This document shows, piece after piece, positions 27,001 to 33,000 of a stretch of 64,000 bases of DNA. Within the stretch, counting starts at the first letter, position 1. Each line of letters begins with the position of its first letter. A program made the position numbers. Location of the stretch: assembly GCF_050320075.1 (NCBI RefSeq), contig NZ_CP190018.1; one strand, given 5' to 3'. Source of the stretch: Escherichia coli. GTDB taxonomy: Bacteria > Pseudomonadota > Gammaproteobacteria > Enterobacterales > Enterobacteriaceae.

Positions 27001-30000
27001 CTCGGGTCAGCTACCGAAAACAGTGGGCGCGCTGGCGGGTGATGATTCTGCCGGTATTGCTGATTCTGGTTGCGCTGGCAGTGGAACGGGGCGTGACGTT
27101 ATGGAGCATCAGCGAACAGGTGGCGCAAAGCCGCACCCAGGCGGAAAAAAAGTTCTTAACACTGTTCCCGGAGCAGAAGCGGATTGTGAATTTGCGTTCC
27201 CAGGTGACGATGGCGCTGAAAAAATATCGCCCGCAGGCCGACGATACCCGGCTGCTCGCAGAATTGTCAGCGATCGCCAGTACCCTGAAAACGGCGTCAC
27301 TTTCCGACATCGAAATGCGTGGTTTCACCTTTGATCAAAAACGCCAGACTCTTCACCTCCAGCTGCGGGCCGCGAACTTTGCCAGCTTCGACAAACTGCG
27401 TAGCGCACTGGCAACCGATTATGTTGTGCAACAGGACGCATTACAGAAAGAGGGTGATGCGGTTTCCGGCGGCGTAACGTTGCGGAGGAAATAACATGTT
27501 ACGCGATAAATTTATTCACTATTTTCAGCAATGGCGTGAACGCCAGTTAAGCCGTGGCGAACACTGGCTGGCACAACACCTGGTGGGGCGTTCGCCGCGT
27601 GAAAAGGGCATGTTACTGGCAGCGGTGGTGTTCCTGTTTAGCGCCGGATATTACGTCCTCATCTGGCAGCCTTTGAGCGAACGGATAGAACAACAGGAGA
27701 CGATGTTGCAGCAGCTGGTGGCGATGAACACCCGACTGAAGAACGCCGCGCCGGATATTATTGCAGCGCGAAAATCTGCCACAACAACGCCTGCGCAGGT
27801 ATCGCGGGTCATCAGTGACAGTGCTTCCGCGCACTCGGTGGTCATCAAGCGGATAGCCGAGCGTGGGGAGAATATTCAAGTCTGGATAGATCCGGTGGTG
27901 TTTAATGACCTGCTGAACTGGTTAAAAGCACTGGATGAAAAATATGCGCTGCGGGTGACACAAATTGATGTCAGTGCTGCTGAGAAGACTGGGATGGTGA
28001 ATGTGCAGCGGCTGGAGTTTGGGCGGGGGTAGGTATTAAAAACTATAAACATTAGTGATATTAAACGTATTATCAAGATTCATTAGCTATTACTTTAACC
28101 TTGATATGTTCCTTATTATATTAAAGTCAGAGTAAGTTGCATATATAAATGAATTATGAACCTACTGAGTAAATTTTTATAGATGTGATTAATAAAGGAA
28201 TATCGATAACCGATTAATATTACAACAATTTGATGAGGCTTACATGTCAAAAAGAATCAACAAATAATTATATCAGAAAAAGTTATATTATCTTATTGAA
28301 GGCCTCTTTAAAGAGGCCTTGCGTGGGCGAAGCGTTCTATGTAACAGTACATGCAACTGGGGTAACTTTTCTTTAAAGGGTATTTTTTCGAACGTGTATT
28401 AGGAAAAGTATTTACATAGAGTGATATTCAGGTTGTAATAAGTTACCTTTGTTACAGTTACGTGGTGTGTGTTTTGTGGTGGATTGTTGGCCTCCTGATT
28501 ATCGTTGTTGTGTTTGTTATCTTAGTGGTCAGGTCTCGTATGCAGGATATGGATGATGATTATTGATAAAAATGTTATCATAAAATTTATAGAGGTATTA
28601 TATTGAATAAGTAAAATATAATGTTGTATTGAACTTTTTACTATTTTTATTGTAAAAAGACCCGCTTTAATTTTATGCATTTTTGAGAGTCTGACCAAAT
28701 AATGGTGTTTTCAATATTCCTCTAGCGTCATATTGTTCAGTGATTTATGCGGGTGTTCACAGTTGTATTCTAGCAACCATTTTCCCTTGATTCCCCACAC
28801 TTCATTCAGTATTCTGGGCAGATGAAAATTGAGTGTTTCTGTACGGGATGTCCGGTTAAAACACTCAATGAAAGCGTACTGCGTCAGCTTACTTGGTTGG
28901 ATAAACATGCAGTAAAACTGGAGTTTATCCAGTTACAAAAAAAATAATGCGCATTATTAATAACACGCATTAAATATAGATTAATTCTTTAATTCTTTAA
29001 TTCTTTAATTCTTTAATTCTTTAATTCTTTAATTAATTCGCTATAACTTTTATAAATAATATCTAAAACCCTAATTAAATCATTTTTATACCTCAGGTTA
29101 TCAGGTTTTATAGAATATGCCTTTTTTAAGTATAGCTCAGAGGTTTTGTAGTCCTTAACTTTTTCAAAAATTAACCCTATATGATGGTATGCTGGAGCAT
29201 AATTTGGATCTTCGTTGATACAGCACTTATAATTATTGATGGCTTCATCAAATTTATTCACATGATTCAATGCTATTCCAAGTTCAAAATATGTATCGCG
29301 GTTTTTCGCTATTTTTACAGATCTTGTTAAAAACGGTAAGGCTGCTGCTGGTTTTTTTTGTCGAGTTAAAGCCATGCCATAATATAAATTATATAGTGGG
29401 TTTGTTATATTATTGTGTTTTACAGAATCAAGAACTTCAATGGCTTGGTCGTACTTTCTGTTTCTGATTAGTACATAGGCATTATAAATTTCATGTATGT
29501 TGTACTTTGAAAAATAATCTTTTCCTGAATATTCGCAATGAAATATCTTTGTTGCTTCGTTATCATTCTTTATCACAGTTTCAATAAATTTATCAATTTT
29601 AATAAAGTTCTCATGAATACTTTTTGTTACATTATGACCAGTGTTTTTTATTATTATGATGTGGATATTTTCTAATGTATATGGCAGTAACGATGCATTA
29701 TATAGATCGATTATGTCAAGCTCACCTGAAAATATATAAAACGTTGTGTCGGTGGCATTAGAAAACAAATTTGTTAAATCATGATATTTAACTTTAATGT
29801 CTTCGGGCATATGTAATTTACTTCGGCTAAAAGGGAGTTGTAAAACATATTCTGCCCCGAAACAAATTACATGTTTTGCTTTATTTTTAATTCCATATAA
29901 CGCTGCTCCCGTTCCTCCCATTGAACTACCAATATATATTGTATTTTTTTTCTTAGTAATGGATTTTATTGCGTCAACGCTATCTTCTAATGAAGAACCC

Positions 30001-33000
30001 ATACTTGGGATATTATGTTGATACCAATGATTTCTATCAATATTAATAAAGGTTTTCTTTCCCGGGAAGGAACTTAGTATTTTGTAAAGAGTGAATTTTC
30101 CTTTAGGTGTATTAAGTGCGGAAAAAATAACAAGGTGAGTATCAAATTCGTCATCTTTATGTAAAATGAAAGGGTTCATACGATTATCTCAAACAATCAT
30201 TTTTAATAATTAAAATTTCTTTATCCCAATTATGAGAATATTTTATTTTTTGGTTTTTTTCCCCATTAGGTCCTTTAAGTGCATCATTTTTATTGAGGCT
30301 AAAACCGAGCACGTCATCATTTGCTAATTTTCCGTTAATTTCTTTTATCCAAGATAAAACTTGAACTCCTCCGCTTGGCGGTGATGATATTTTTTTACAT
30401 AACGACTGGTAAATATCAAATGGAATACAGGTAGTAGGAATATTTGACTTATAAAAATCGTAGAAAAAGTCAAATGCTGAAGGAGAACGGTCTATATGAT
30501 TAGTACCCGTTATTATAACAGCTTTTAAGCCAGCTAAAGACTTTCTAGAGACTTCTTCAAATGAAGGTGATTTTACCCAAATGTCAGTTTTTACTCCTAT
30601 ATCAGCTCTTCGGTTAAGGCTCGTATCGTAGCTATTAAATCTAATTACGATATTGCACTTATTTATCTCTTTTCCCTTTTTAATCCCTCTTTGGTTTGGT
30701 GAATTACCTATGATTTTAATATTATCTTTGTTTTTCTTTAATAAAGAAACTATGATATCTTTGCTATTTTCCACAAAATTATAACACCGAGCCAGTTCTC
30801 TGATATATTCACCTTCATCGAAGTCTAAAGATGAAATATAATTTTCGTCATTACTAATGATATTGGCCAATCGAAGATATTGTTTCTTTCTGAAAATGGA
30901 AGGTGATTTTGCTATACACTTTTTAGCGAGAATTATAGCATCTTGATAATTTCCACTTTCGGCAAGTATTGATGATAAATCAAATTGTTGATCTATCGTA
31001 AGATTCGCTGTGATGGGTGACTTAGCAAATTTTACCATCTCTTTGTTTATGCCAAAATAAATCCATTTTGTTCTGTAATATAGATAGGAAAGAGTTGGCG
31101 TGTATTTTTCTATTGGTTTTACTCGCTTATAAGCATTATCTAATTCGCTTCCAAATTTTCGCTTTGCTATGAGCGGGCGAATGGTGTCAGAAAAAAGCCA
31201 ATTATTAAAGTTTTTATTTAACCTTAATATTATTTCATTTTTTTTATTTTTTTTCAAGAGCATGTCTTGAGCGAATTTTTTTGGGGATTTAATCAATTTT
31301 AATATTTTTTTATTAGGTATATGGGGTGGAGTTGTTTTTATATAATTCATTGGTGGTTGTTGTTCTTGAGAAGGAAGTTGCTTTTTTCGTTGTGTTGGTG
31401 GATTCATAATAGCTTCAATTAAAGGGTATAGAGATATTTCAAAACCATCCCAATGCCCCTTGTCATATATATCAGATACTGGGAGTTGGCGTATTTTTAA
31501 ATATTCTAAGAAAATATCTCTTCGTTTTTTGGGGATATGTATGTTAGATAACCAGCGTTCTTTTATATTTCCGTCATGGCATTCAACAACTATTCCTTTA
31601 TTTTGAAAAATGCCATAACCTAATGAATATATATTAACTGGGTATTGCATTGCTTCTATTATAACAGTTGAGTTAACGGCGATTAATGCTAACGAATCAC
31701 TTAAACTATTTGATAATTTTTCTTCGTTATCAAAGCTTATATTATCTAATTTTTCAATTGAATAGTTGTTTTTATCCCGAGGATGCTTTCTTATTACAAT
31801 ATGAATATCTTTAGGAAGTGAGGTGCGTATATGATAAATTAGTTCCTGATGACTGAGTTGAAGTGGATATGATTCTTTATCTAAAGTAGTATCTCCGGGT
31901 AGTTGCAGTGCAAGAATCACTTTTTTACTATAAGAAGTTAGAATCGTTTCATTATTGTCAATTGTATAATTATGCGTTAGTTCTTCTAGTGATTTAAATC
32001 GGATACTACTTTTATAGTTTGCGCCCATATAATCAAAATATATATTTCCATTTTGTGGTAACCATCCTAATTCAGAATAAACAGTGGGTATAGAGCGAAG
32101 CGAATAAAGTTCATCTAAAGCATTATTAAAAAATTTAGTGTTGCCATTAAATATAAATAGCATATTCGGATTAGATGCTAGAAAGTCTTCAGAAAGTTTC
32201 CTCAAATTAAATCGCCAATCATAAAATGTATAGTTTTTGGGAGATATTGGGAATTTTCTCGAGAATTTGGTATTGTAATTTAACTCTTTTCTGGAAACGA
32301 AATGATAGTTATTTATTACTGAGCTTAAAAGCCCGCCCCACATCTCTTGTGAGTGTTCATTCATCATAGACAGACCAAATACATCTAGTTTATTATCTAG
32401 ATAATTAGATGCGGCATTTTTGTATGCTAACTTTATTGAGGTATCTGATGCAGTATAAAGATTGTTCTTTATATTCTTGCTTATACATAGGGAATTATTG
32501 CCATTAATTATATTAATTATATTTGAGATATATTTCCTATTGTTTTCAAGTATAAATTCTTCAACGATTTTTCGGTTAGGCGGTAACTGTGATAGCTTGT
32601 CAATTACAGCTGCACTAAAAGTTATTAAATCTTGATAGTGTATTAACGTTAAAAGCTCTGCTGGGTAACATTCTGAAAACCCCCCTACGTCCCAAGCCAC
32701 AACATGACATGAACAACTAATCGCTTCAGCCGCTACTAAACTAAAACTTTCAAATCGACTAGGGATTATACATACTTTTGATTTTTTCAATAGTTCTAAT
32801 TTTGTTTCATTATCAACCCACCCTAAAAATTCAACATTACATTTAGAATTGATAAGATTAACATAATCTTTTTCGGTAATGTTAATGCCAATAATCTTAA
32901 TGTTTATATTATTTGGAAAGTGAGATATTAATTTTGAAAGATAATCGCTTCCTTTTACTAAATCAAGCCGTCCTACAAAAATAACATCAATATCTTTGCA

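What the first reader, a model, noticed from the sequence alone, without database searches (positions are those of the whole stretch)
29013..30179. Alpha/beta-hydrolase + TPR fusion protein in capsule region 2
Sequence shows a nucleophile elbow GSSMGG, a later acidic residue (SGELDIID) and a GH motif (KNTGHNV) in the canonical Ser-Asp-His order, followed by about 170 aa with TPR-like periodicity. Meningococcal capsule O-acetyltransferases (OatC, OatWY) are alpha/beta-hydrolase-fold enzymes, so this may O-acylate the polymer; an esterase role is the alternative. The TPR fusion is not a feature I recall for those enzymes.
Basis: inference. Interest (0 to 1): 0.6.

Follow-up and report, generated by a model that had tools for sequence, protein, structure and literature searches.

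The report
TPR-tethered CsaC-like capsule O-acetyltransferase candidate
The last gene of an unusual E. coli capsule locus encodes a cytoplasmic serine enzyme, distantly related to the meningococcal group A capsule O-acetyltransferase CsaC, fused to a TPR domain. It most likely acetylates the capsule sugar chain, and it belongs to a large family that databases label only as "TPR protein".

Summary
Window 29013-30179 (minus strand) is an intact 388-aa ORF. Residues 1-212 form an alpha/beta-hydrolase domain (AF2 pLDDT 96) and residues ~219-388 form four TPR motifs plus a capping helix.

The gene follows a 1089-aa capsule polymerase after a 4-nt gap. That gene pair recurs in Aeromonas, Pseudomonas and a metagenome contig. 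In sister atypical E. coli K loci the same last slot holds ordinary acetyl- or acyltransferases.

Corrections:
- OatWY is a beta-helix enzyme, not an alpha/beta-hydrolase.
- The TPR fusion is the family norm (133/138 representatives). It has a functional precedent in Vi-antigen TviD, whose TPR binds the polymerase.

Activity, donor and acceptor are untested, and the capsule structure is unknown. Verdict: a new variant of a known kind, of moderate interest.

The parts
29013..30179 (-). Whole gene: 388-aa alpha/beta-hydrolase + TPR protein (RefSeq WP_024946591.1, annotated 'tetratricopeptide repeat protein')
   Evidence: ORF list. RefSeq annotation. Present in 22 of 5426 complete E. coli genomes, all >=99.8% identical.
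29544..30179 (-). N-terminal catalytic domain, aa 1-212: compact alpha/beta-hydrolase fold, CsaC-like
29913..29930 (-). Nucleophile elbow G84-S-S86-M-G-G89. S86 is the predicted acyl-accepting serine and aligns with CsaC S114.
   Evidence: G84 145/145, S86 143/145, M87 143/145, G88 145/145.
29706..29729 (-). Post-beta7 acid segment S-G-E-L-D155-I-I-D158. D155 aligns with CsaC D198 (the triad acid). D158 aligns with CsaC H201.
   Evidence: HMM alignment. Conservation: D158 144/145, D155 103/145. CsaC residue roles from PMC7501274.
29628..29648 (-). His motif K-N-T-G-H182-N-V. H182 is the predicted general base and aligns with CsaC H228.
   Evidence: H182 144/145.
30081..30101 (-). G27-K28-F29-T-L-Y-K33 loop, predicted to bind the CoA nucleotide. 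It aligns with the CsaC K48/Y49/K53 segment that contacts the adenine and phosphates of CoA.
   Evidence: Alignment. CsaC-CoA contacts. Family conservation: G27 118/145, basic residue at 28 in 105/145, F29 141/145, basic residue at 33 in 89/145. This is an alignment-based inference.
30018..30032 (-). N50-H-W52-Y53-Q family signature. W52 occupies the position of CsaC Y79, part of CsaC's triad extension.
   Evidence: N50 108/145, W52 140/145, Y53 139/145. Alignment. The motif is also present in K15 ORF5.
29850..29852 (-). E110, conserved acidic residue at the position of CsaC Q138, the residue that positions the acetyl-serine
   Evidence: E 111/145 plus D 25/145. Alignment. Role of Q138.
29016..29525 (-). 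C-terminal TPR domain, aa ~219-388: four TPR motifs plus a long capping helix. Predicted docking module.
   Evidence: It resembles, among others, the TPR of capsule polymerase Cps3D (8qoy_A, E 1.2e-7).
30184..33453 (-). Upstream partner gene: 1089-aa multi-domain capsule polymerase candidate. Domains: GT4 at aa 153-283, KpsS/Capsule_synth-like at ~477-655, a weak TPR at ~824 and GT29-like at 913-966. Its stop codon lies 4 nt before the start of the 388-aa gene.
   Evidence: Pfam. BLASTP to KpsS, E 3.6e-5. Homologues next to ABH-TPR genes in Aeromonas (57% identity), Pseudomonas (43%) and a metagenome contig (41%).
33529..34982 (-). kpsT (33529-34206) and kpsM (34203-34982), the ABC exporter genes. 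They are transcribed in the same direction, immediately upstream of the polymerase.
   Evidence: RefSeq annotation transferred from L001. GC content ~0.30-0.34 across 28-35 kb against ~0.53 in the flanks.
35014..35021 (-). ops element GGCGGTAG inside a JUMPStart-like sequence (GGTAGC...GGCGGTAGCGT), about 32 nt upstream of kpsM. It marks the likely start of the RfaH-dependent kpsMT-polymerase-ABH/TPR transcript.
   Evidence: The 8-mer alone is not rare (36 of 100 shuffles give >=2 matches). Its position and flanking sequence are what make it credible. The role of JUMPStart in region 3 is noted in PMC7387560.
28945..28972 (-). Terminator-like hairpin (12 pairs) followed by T8, 41 nt after the stop codon. 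Likely end of the operon.
   Evidence: This is a consensus scan only; the number of sites found equals the shuffle expectation.
28981..29034 (.). Perfect 8-bp tandem repeat (TTAATTCT x 6.8 on the + strand; AATTAAAG on the coding strand). It encodes the last residues (..IKELKN) and runs across the stop codon.

Best explanation
The gene encodes a soluble cytoplasmic capsule O-acyltransferase, most likely an acetyl-CoA-dependent O-acetyltransferase of the CsaC type.

Proposed mechanism, inferred by homology to CsaC:
1. Acetyl-CoA binds along a basic groove that includes the G27-K28-F29...K33 loop.
2. S86, in the GSSMGG nucleophile elbow, is acetylated with help from H182.
3. CoA leaves.
4. A sugar hydroxyl of the nascent polysaccharide enters the site and is deprotonated by H182. 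It takes the acetyl group from acetyl-S86. This is a ping-pong, double-displacement reaction with an oxyanion hole formed by backbone amides near residue 22 and M87.
5. An Asp (D155 or D158) orients H182. W52, E110 and D158 form a conserved second shell at the positions of CsaC's Y79-Q138-H201.

The C-terminal four-repeat TPR domain is not catalytic. It is proposed to tether the enzyme to the adjacent 1089-aa polymerase or to the Kps export complex, so that the chain is decorated as it is made, as shown for the TPR of the Vi-antigen O-acetyltransferase TviD.

The gene is the last one of a kpsM-kpsT-polymerase-ABH/TPR operon preceded by a JUMPStart/ops element.

What is shown: fold, conserved triad, homology to CsaC, conserved gene neighbourhood. 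What is inferred: donor, acceptor, TPR partner, operon structure.

For: 2. Residue mapping in that alignment:
- S86 = S114
- H182 = H228
- D155 = D198
- the F19-S20 region = the F37-S38-A39-F40 oxyanion/pantetheine segment
- G-K28-F29-x-x-x-K33 = K48-Y49-...-K53, which bind the adenine and phosphates of CoA in CsaC
These positions are conserved across the family.

3. The catalytic residues are near-invariant in 145 diverse representatives. This excludes a purely structural role.

4. The protein has no signal peptide and no transmembrane segment (maximum Kyte-Doolittle 19-residue mean 1.06). Its pI is 8.98. It is therefore cytoplasmic, where acetyl-CoA is available, and basic, as expected for binding an acidic polymer.

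5. Context.
- The gene lies 4 nt after the polymerase gene.
- The polymerase + ABH-TPR pair is conserved in Aeromonas enteropelogenes, Pseudomonas hunanensis and a metagenome contig, with the gene order swapped in two of them.
- Four further family members lie in Kps-type or nonulosonic-acid polysaccharide loci.
- Family fusions carry AlgX-like or hexapeptide acetyltransferase domains, or are annotated sulfotransferase or PseG in UniProt.

6. In sister atypical E. coli K loci the same last position after a giant polymerase holds a CatB-related O-acetyltransferase, an 'acyltransferase' or a 'putative acetyltransferase' (PMC13171598, Supplementary file 12).

7. ORF5 of the E. coli K15 locus is the predicted O-acetyltransferase of the 3-O-acetylated K15 polymer. 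It is a distant relative: hhalign probability 98.2%, E 4e-14.

8. TPR precedent. The TviD TPR is needed for binding polymerase TviE and for membrane association, but not for catalysis (PMC8760489). TPR domains are common in group 2 capsule polymerases (PMC11666461).
Against: There is no biochemical or genetic test of this protein or of any TPR-bearing family member. The polysaccharide made by this locus is structurally unknown, so it is not known whether it carries O-acetyl groups.

CsaC's distinctive Y79-Q138-H201 network is replaced by W52-E110-D158, and its acceptor-binding R148 lies in an insertion absent here. Mechanistic details may therefore differ.

The mapping of the CoA site rests on a remote alignment, and CsaC R237 and I233 are not conserved. 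The TPR partner is inferred only from gene adjacency and analogy.
Confidence: 0.68

Rival explanations
1. The protein is a carbohydrate esterase or other hydrolase. It would use the same Ser-His-Asp triad with water as acceptor, for example to trim O-acyl groups from the polymer or a precursor, or to cleave a thioester or ester intermediate.
Against: No acetyltransferase is encoded in this two-gene region 2 to supply a substrate for de-acetylation. The best hit by two independent methods is a transferase. The CoA-nucleotide-binding segment of CsaC is conserved in the family. The family is embedded in biosynthetic, not catabolic, loci. The same slot in sister loci holds acetyltransferases.
Confidence: 0.13
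2. It is an acyltransferase, but with a different donor or acceptor from the one proposed. Examples: transfer of propionyl or another acyl group; modification of the poly-Kdo linker or lipid end; modification of a nucleotide-sugar precursor rather than the polymer.
For: The donor and acceptor are not defined by any result here. Some E. coli Kdo capsules carry O-propionyl as well as O-acetyl groups (own knowledge of K14 and K52, not tested here). The second-shell residues differ from CsaC. The nearest structural neighbours after CsaC transfer long acyl chains (Ag85/MPT51).
Against: The compact 212-aa domain has only a short lid (aa ~108-145), which leaves little room for a long acyl chain. The gene is serotype-specific and travels with the polymerase, not with kpsC/kpsS. 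This argues against a role on the conserved linker or lipid.
Confidence: 0.12
3. It is mainly a non-catalytic TPR scaffold or chaperone for the polymerase or export complex, and the hydrolase-like domain is a degenerate relic.
For: RefSeq and UniProt call it only a TPR protein. TPR domains in capsule systems do act as scaffolds.
Against: Ser, His, Asp and the elbow glycines are conserved in 143-145 of 145 divergent representatives. In Aeromonas the hydrolase part stays intact while the TPR part is split off by a frameshift. Members without any TPR exist.
Confidence: 0.03

Closest known systems
CsaC (SacC/MynC), capsule O-acetyltransferase of Neisseria meningitidis serogroup A (PDB 6YUO/6YUQ/6YUS/6YUV; PMC7501274)
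   Different: Identity is only 17-20%. CsaC's Y79-Q138-H201 triad extension is replaced by W52-E110-D158. The CsaC lid insertion carrying the acceptor-binding R148 is absent; the family has a conserved S-R119-S instead. CsaC has no TPR domain and forms tetramers. The polymers differ: ManNAc-1-phosphate in CsaC, and probably a Kdo-containing polymer here.
TviD, Vi-antigen O-acetyltransferase of Salmonella Typhi (PMC8760489)
   Same: Both have an N-terminal catalytic domain followed by a C-terminal TPR domain. Both are encoded next to a GT4-containing polymerase in an ABC-transporter capsule locus. The TviD TPR was shown to mediate binding to the polymerase and the membrane and to be dispensable for catalysis, which is the role proposed here.
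   Different: The TviD catalytic domain is modelled as SGNH-like, with an N-terminal Cys18 nucleophile and a DxxH block. That is a different order and nucleophile from the GxSxG...D...H arrangement here. TviD is 831 aa with nine TPRs and no detectable sequence relationship was seen. It is an analogue in architecture, not a family member.
ORF5 of the E. coli K15 capsule locus (WP_001395419 / NDK77127; PMC7387560)
   Same: It is a distant homologue (hhalign probability 98.2%, E 4e-14). It shares the N-x-W-Y and G-x-S-M-G-G-Y signatures. It was predicted from the 3-O-acetylated K15 structure to be the capsule O-acetyltransferase. It too lies in an E. coli kps locus.
   Different: It is 312-315 aa, with a ~90-aa N-terminal extension and no TPR domain. 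Pairwise BLAST is barely significant (E 0.02). Its function is also only predicted.
ABH-TPR protein of the E. coli K24 locus (NRG 857C/LF82/A0 34/86; WP_000199920)
   Same: It is a full-length collinear homologue: 27% identity, E 1e-29, with GVSMGG, GEMDFPD and a THG His motif followed by TPRs. It lies in region 2 of a group 2 locus next to a GT29-like gene, as the polymerase here has a GT29-like domain.
   Different: It sits in a typical convergent G2 locus with separate TagD-like, GT29-like and TagF-like genes, consistent with a glycerol-phosphate polymer containing alpha-Kdo. It is uncharacterised and annotated only as a TPR protein.
Asp2/Gap2 of the accessory Sec system (PDB 6LNW_B, 6OYC_B; Pfam PF16929)
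   Same: It is an alpha/beta-hydrolase with a Ser-Asp-His triad. It gives weak but recurrent sequence and fold matches: Pfam Asp2 in 14 of 42 family members at E<=0.1, Foldseek rank 9, and profile E 5e-4 to 0.02. To my knowledge Asp2 O-acetylates GlcNAc on serine-rich-repeat glycoproteins; I did not verify this here.
   Different: It is a Gram-positive protein-glycan system. The hydrolase domain is C-terminal in a ~510-aa protein. It has no TPR and no capsule context.

Membership tests
CsaC-type alpha/beta-hydrolase capsule O-acetyltransferases | alpha/beta-hydrolase fold | tested here: met
CsaC-type alpha/beta-hydrolase capsule O-acetyltransferases | Ser-His-Asp triad, with the Ser in a GxSxG nucleophile elbow, in the order Ser...Asp...His | tested here: met
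   S86, D155/D158 and H182 are present. Conservation is 143, 103/144 and 144 of 145. They align with CsaC S114, D198 and H228. Which Asp is the triad acid is unresolved.
CsaC-type alpha/beta-hydrolase capsule O-acetyltransferases | Statistically significant sequence relationship to CsaC | tested here: met
   Family profile against PDB: 6yuo_A is the best hit, E 3.9e-8, 35.9 bits, near full length. A single-sequence search found no hydrolase hit.
CsaC-type alpha/beta-hydrolase capsule O-acetyltransferases | CsaC-specific triad extension Y79-Q138-H201 | tested here: not met
   The aligned positions hold W52, E110 and D158. They are conserved in the family (140, 111 E + 25 D, and 144 of 145) but are chemically different.
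CsaC-type alpha/beta-hydrolase capsule O-acetyltransferases | Lid arginine (R148) that positions the acceptor | tested here: inconclusive
   R148 lies in a CsaC insertion with no counterpart here. The family has a conserved R119 (99/145) in the S-R-S motif of the short lid. Equivalence cannot be judged without coordinates.
CsaC-type alpha/beta-hydrolase capsule O-acetyltransferases | Acetyl-CoA-dependent formation of acetyl-Ser and transfer to the capsule polymer | not testable with these tools
   There is only indirect support: the loop aligned with the CoA-binding K48/Y49/K53 segment is conserved.
CsaC-type alpha/beta-hydrolase capsule O-acetyltransferases | Encoded in the serotype-specific region of an ABC-transporter-dependent capsule locus | tested here: met
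   It is the last gene of kpsFEDUCS-kpsMT-polymerase-ABH/TPR. Homologues lie in Kps-type loci.
Hexapeptide-repeat (left-handed beta-helix) capsule O-acetyltransferases (OatWY/CssF, NeuO) | Tandem hexapeptide repeats forming a left-handed beta-helix | tested here: not met
   There are no Hexapep or NCBIfam acetyltransferase hits. The model is alpha/beta/alpha plus TPR. The family definition comes from PMC7387560.
TviD-type (SGNH-like + TPR) Vi-antigen O-acetyltransferases | N-terminal Cys/Ser nucleophile block I and a C-terminal DxxH block V (SGNH-like) | tested here: not met
   The nucleophile is mid-domain in a GxSxG elbow and the fold is the canonical alpha/beta-hydrolase.
TviD-type (SGNH-like + TPR) Vi-antigen O-acetyltransferases | C-terminal TPR domain that binds the cognate polymerase | tested here: inconclusive
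   The TPR domain is present and the polymerase gene is adjacent and co-inherited. Physical interaction was not testable.
Tetratricopeptide repeat proteins | At least 3 tandem 34-residue helix-turn-helix repeats matching TPR profiles | tested here: met
   Pfam TPR_1 (295-327), TPR_8 (328-361) and TPR_11. CTPR design proteins at E 1e-16 to 9e-23. Four helix pairs in the model.

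The most novel reading that the evidence does not exclude
The gene may be the E. coli representative of a very large, unrecognised family of TPR-tethered, CsaC-like O-acyltransferases. The family has at least 2,465 50%-identity clusters, 797 of them at E<=1e-10.

On this reading the family is a common cytoplasmic decoration module for ABC-transporter-exported acidic polymers: Kdo-, nonulosonic-acid- and teichoic-acid-like capsules. The sampled loci include three E. coli K loci and a P22-like prophage, where a member sits in the lysogenic-conversion slot between integrase and tailspike.

The conserved W52-E110-D158 shell, in place of CsaC's Y79-Q138-H201, would then define a mechanistically distinct branch of polysaccharide O-acetyltransferases. 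The TPR would act as a general adaptor that couples decoration to polymerisation.
Probability: 0.45. Interest if true: 0.6.

Novelty: new variant of a known kind. Interest (0 to 1): 0.45.

Why it matters
O-acetylation changes the antigenicity, stability and phage or antibody recognition of capsules. For meningococcal A and Vi vaccines it is essential for efficacy. This locus belongs to the recently catalogued 'atypical G2' K loci of extraintestinal E. coli, here in an ST648-type background, and their polysaccharides are chemically unknown.

Recognising the last gene as a probable O-acetyltransferase has three consequences:
1. It predicts an O-acetylated capsule.
2. It gives a concrete Ser-to-Ala experiment.
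3. It would allow re-annotation of a large family of proteins now labelled only 'TPR protein', including those in the E. coli K24 locus and in many environmental capsule loci.

It also offers a second, sequence-unrelated example, after TviD, of a TPR domain coupling a modifying enzyme to a capsule polymerase.

Tried and rejected
1. Single-sequence searches did not reveal the catalytic domain. phmmer against PDB returned only TPR proteins. NCBIfam returned only TPR families. Pfam gave sub-threshold Hydrolase_4 and Abhydrolase_1 hits. The relationship to CsaC appeared only with a 42-sequence profile and with the deep-alignment model.

2. The word-indexed homologue search was shallow. It gave 6 and then 29 hits with no informative names. 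The exhaustive representative search was what exposed the family.

3. I tried to decide between D155 and D158 as the triad acid from the 3-D model, but model coordinates are not exposed to the scripting sandbox. The question is left open.

4. I looked for divergent copies in E. coli by sensitive blastn. Only the same 22 genomes came up. Divergent E. coli members (K24, and a 419-aa protein) were found only through structure search.

5. I searched the annotated phage collection with the prophage-borne member P0020. Only a weak cyanophage hit appeared. The host of that prophage contig is not E. coli and was not identified.

6. I compared the polymerase with the K15 region-2 proteins to infer the sugar composition. 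There was no significant similarity except a short GT4 stretch, so the repeat-unit structure remains unknown.

7. I tried to assign a final KL number. The locus matches the entry labelled 'KL45' in Supplementary file 12 of PMC13171598 gene for gene. That label does not follow the paper's final numbering rule, under which unknown phenotypes start at KL110, so the final name is not settled.

8. A non-catalytic scaffold reading was rejected because of the near-invariant catalytic residues.

Full report
WHAT IS THERE

Window 29013-30179 holds a single long ORF on the minus strand: ATG start, 388 aa. RefSeq annotates the identical ORF in E. coli strain ST648 as WP_024946591.1, 'tetratricopeptide repeat protein'.

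The window is E. coli chromosome. The gene sits at the end of a capsule (kps) locus inserted between the yghD/gsp type II secretion genes and the pheV-side island. All genes of the locus are on the minus strand, in the order kpsF-E-D-U-C-S, kpsM, kpsT, a 1089-aa glycosyltransferase, and then this gene. The block from kpsM to the 388-aa gene has 29-34% G+C, against about 53% in the flanks.

The gene is found in 22 of 5426 complete E. coli genomes, always at >=99.8% identity.

CHECK OF THE OBSERVATION

An exhaustive profile search of 1.84 billion representative proteins with the N-terminal 210 residues found 2,465 relatives at E<=1e-3 and 797 at E<=1e-10. In an alignment of 145 of the best representatives the conservation is as follows:

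| Residue | Conserved in |
|---|---|
| G84 | 145/145 |
| S86 | 143/145 |
| M87 | 143/145 |
| G88 | 145/145 |
| D158 | 144/145 |
| H182 | 144/145 |
| D155 | 103/145 |

Further near-invariant positions are F19-S20, F29, N46, W52-Y53 and G56, plus an acidic residue at 110 (E 111, D 25).

With a 42-sequence alignment, AlphaFold2 models residues 1-212 at pLDDT 96 as a compact alpha/beta-hydrolase. The AFDB model of the same protein (A0A4S3YM41) superposes with TM 0.98.

The C-terminal ~170 residues are a genuine TPR domain. The evidence is Pfam TPR_1/TPR_8/TPR_11, strong matches to consensus TPR proteins, and four helix pairs plus a capping helix at pLDDT >90.

WHAT IT IS

Single-sequence searches show only the TPR part, and Pfam sees the hydrolase domain only below threshold. 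That explains the database name.

The profile alignment maps residues onto CsaC as follows:

| This protein | CsaC | Role in CsaC |
|---|---|---|
| S86 | S114 | nucleophile |
| H182 | H228 | general base |
| D155 | D198 | triad acid |
| W52 | Y79 | triad extension |
| E110 | Q138 | triad extension |
| D158 | H201 | triad extension |

The family thus keeps a conserved second shell at the same positions as CsaC's unusual 'triad extension', but with different chemistry.

The CsaC segment that holds the adenine and phosphates of CoA (K48, Y49, K53) aligns with the family's G-[KR]-F-x-F-[WYF]-[KR] motif, which is G27-K28-F29...K33 in this protein. CsaC's acceptor-binding R148 lies in an insertion that the family lacks. 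A conserved S-R119-S motif in the short lid may substitute for it; this is an inference.

The protein has no signal peptide or membrane segment and is basic, with pI 8.98.

CONTEXT

The start codon lies 4 nt after the stop of the 1089-aa gene. The product of that gene has the following domains:
- a GT4 domain
- a KpsS/Capsule_synth-like domain
- a weak TPR
- a C-terminal GT29-like domain

A terminator-like hairpin follows the 388-aa gene. A JUMPStart-like sequence with the ops element GGCGGTAG lies about 32 nt upstream of kpsM. The gene is therefore probably the last cistron of a kpsMT-polymerase-ABH/TPR transcript; this is inferred.

The polymerase + ABH-TPR pair is conserved in ABC-transporter capsule loci of three other sources. 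In each case it is accompanied by kdsA/kdsB/kpsF/kpsC/kpsS genes, and in two of them the gene order is swapped:

| Source | Polymerase identity | ABH-TPR identity |
|---|---|---|
| Aeromonas enteropelogenes | 57% | 45% |
| Pseudomonas hunanensis | 43% | 39% |
| metagenome contig | 41% | - |

Other sampled family members are found in these settings:
- Kps-type loci with TagF-like, GT29-like or pyruvyltransferase genes
- nonulosonic-acid loci
- a polysaccharide locus, as a fusion with an AlgX-like domain
- a fusion to a hexapeptide acetyltransferase
- a P22-like prophage, between integrase and tailspike

Of 138 representatives of >=330 aa, 133 carry TPRs after the hydrolase domain. The fusion is the family norm.

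Within E. coli there are further relatives. A collinear homologue (27% identity, E 1e-29) lies in region 2 of the K24 locus of NRG 857C, LF82 and A0 34/86, and is present in 61 genomes. The predicted O-acetyltransferase ORF5 of the K15 locus is a distant, TPR-less relative (hhalign probability 98.2%).

RELATION TO PUBLISHED WORK ON THE LOCUS

Gladstone et al. (PMC13171598) describe nine 'atypical G2' K loci in which region 2 lies outside regions 1 and 3. Their Supplementary file 12 lists a locus labelled 'KL45'. Its gene lengths and spacing match this window exactly: glycosyltransferase 3270 bp, a 4-nt gap, then 'tetratricopeptide repeat protein' 1167 bp.

In the sister atypical loci of that file, the gene after the giant polymerase is one of the following:
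- a CatB-related O-acetyltransferase ('KL44')
- an 'acyltransferase' ('KL43')
- a 'putative acetyltransferase' ('KL98')

This positional equivalence supports an O-acetyltransferase role for the ABH-TPR gene. No function has been proposed for it in that paper.

MECHANISM PROPOSED

By homology with CsaC (PMC7501274), the steps would be:
1. Acetyl-CoA binds.
2. S86 is acetylated.
3. CoA leaves.
4. A hydroxyl of the nascent polymer is activated by H182 and takes the acetyl group.

The TPR domain is proposed to dock the enzyme on the polymerase or export complex. The Vi-antigen O-acetyltransferase TviD supplies the precedent. Its C-terminal TPR is required for binding polymerase TviE and the membrane but not for catalysis (PMC8760489). 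TPR domains are also integral to TagF-like capsule polymerases (PMC11666461).

The Aeromonas orthologue fits a dispensable TPR. There a frameshift separates an intact hydrolase ORF from the TPR ORF in all contigs examined.

RIVALS

An esterase role cannot be excluded from sequence. CsaC itself has an esterase-like active site, and esterases are close structural neighbours. However, the two-gene region 2 encodes no other acetyltransferase to provide a substrate, and the CoA-loop conservation and biosynthetic contexts argue for transfer.

A different acyl donor or acceptor remains possible. A purely structural role is contradicted by the conservation of the catalytic residues.

OatWY is a left-handed beta-helix enzyme, not an alpha/beta-hydrolase. 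OatC and CsaC are the alpha/beta-hydrolase examples. The TPR fusion is typical of this family and has a functional analogue in TviD.

VERDICT

This is a real and correctly read feature. It is a probable capsule O-acetyltransferase of a large, unannotated, TPR-bearing branch related to CsaC. I rate it a new variant of a known kind, of moderate interest. Confidence in the proposed function is about 0.68. All activity claims are inferred and need the experiments listed under next steps.

Noticed in passing
window 28981-29034: A perfect 8-bp tandem repeat (TTAATTCT x 6.8; AATTAAAG on the coding strand) encodes the last residues of the 388-aa protein and runs through its stop codon. Every reading frame of the repeat contains TAA, so slippage would change only a few C-terminal residues. 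A terminator-like hairpin follows at 28972-28945.
   Followed up: partly
window 30184-43372 (kps locus) and 35014-35021: All kps genes are co-oriented, in the order kpsFEDUCS, kpsMT, region 2. This is the 'atypical G2' architecture of PMC13171598. The locus matches, gene for gene, the entry labelled 'KL45' in that paper's Supplementary file 12. A JUMPStart/ops element (GGCGGTAG) lies ~32 nt upstream of kpsM, in the kpsS-kpsM spacer.
   Followed up: partly
window 30184-33453 (-): A 1089-aa single-polypeptide polymerase candidate with GT4, KpsS/Capsule_synth-like, weak TPR and GT29-like domains. RefSeq calls it 'glycosyltransferase family 29 protein' and starts it 19 codons later. A stand-alone GT29-like gene also occurs in the K24 locus, whose polymer contains alpha-Kdo (PMC12887879), so the GT29-like module may be an alpha-Kdo transferase. 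The repeat-unit structure of this capsule is unknown.
   Followed up: partly
window 28711-28908 (-): A 65-aa ORF annotated 'integrase core domain-containing protein' lies between yghD and the end of the capsule locus. It is an IS fragment and a possible scar of the locus rearrangement or acquisition.
   Followed up: no
L007:5493-6710 and L008:92-1309: A 405-aa family member (P0020) is encoded in a P22-like prophage between the integrase and the tailspike gene. That is the slot where O-antigen-modifying lysogenic-conversion genes usually sit. The host is an unidentified enterobacterium, not E. coli by megablast.
   Followed up: partly
L003:8677-9857 (also L004, L005): In Aeromonas enteropelogenes the orthologue is split by a frameshift near residue ~230 into a 239-aa hydrolase ORF and a 155-aa (or 88-aa) TPR ORF. 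The split is seen in all contigs examined.
   Followed up: partly
L019:8773-17257 (E. coli NRG 857C, K24-type locus): Region 2 of the K24 locus carries a TagD-like cytidylyltransferase (mis-named pantoate-beta-alanine ligase), a GT29-like protein, a TagF-like glycerophosphotransferase, an ABH-TPR homologue (27% identity to the window protein), a hypothetical protein and an IS256 element. In two genomes the ABH-TPR gene is annotated 'M48 family metallopeptidase'.
   Followed up: partly
proteins P0012, P0013, P0014, P0045, P0105, P0115 (family representatives): Some family members show unusual architectures. P0012-P0014 and P0045 have tandem duplicated hydrolase domains. P0115 is fused to a hexapeptide (LbH) acetyltransferase. 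P0105 (L015:7001-10930) is fused to an AlgX-like domain, next to sulfotransferase genes.
   Followed up: no
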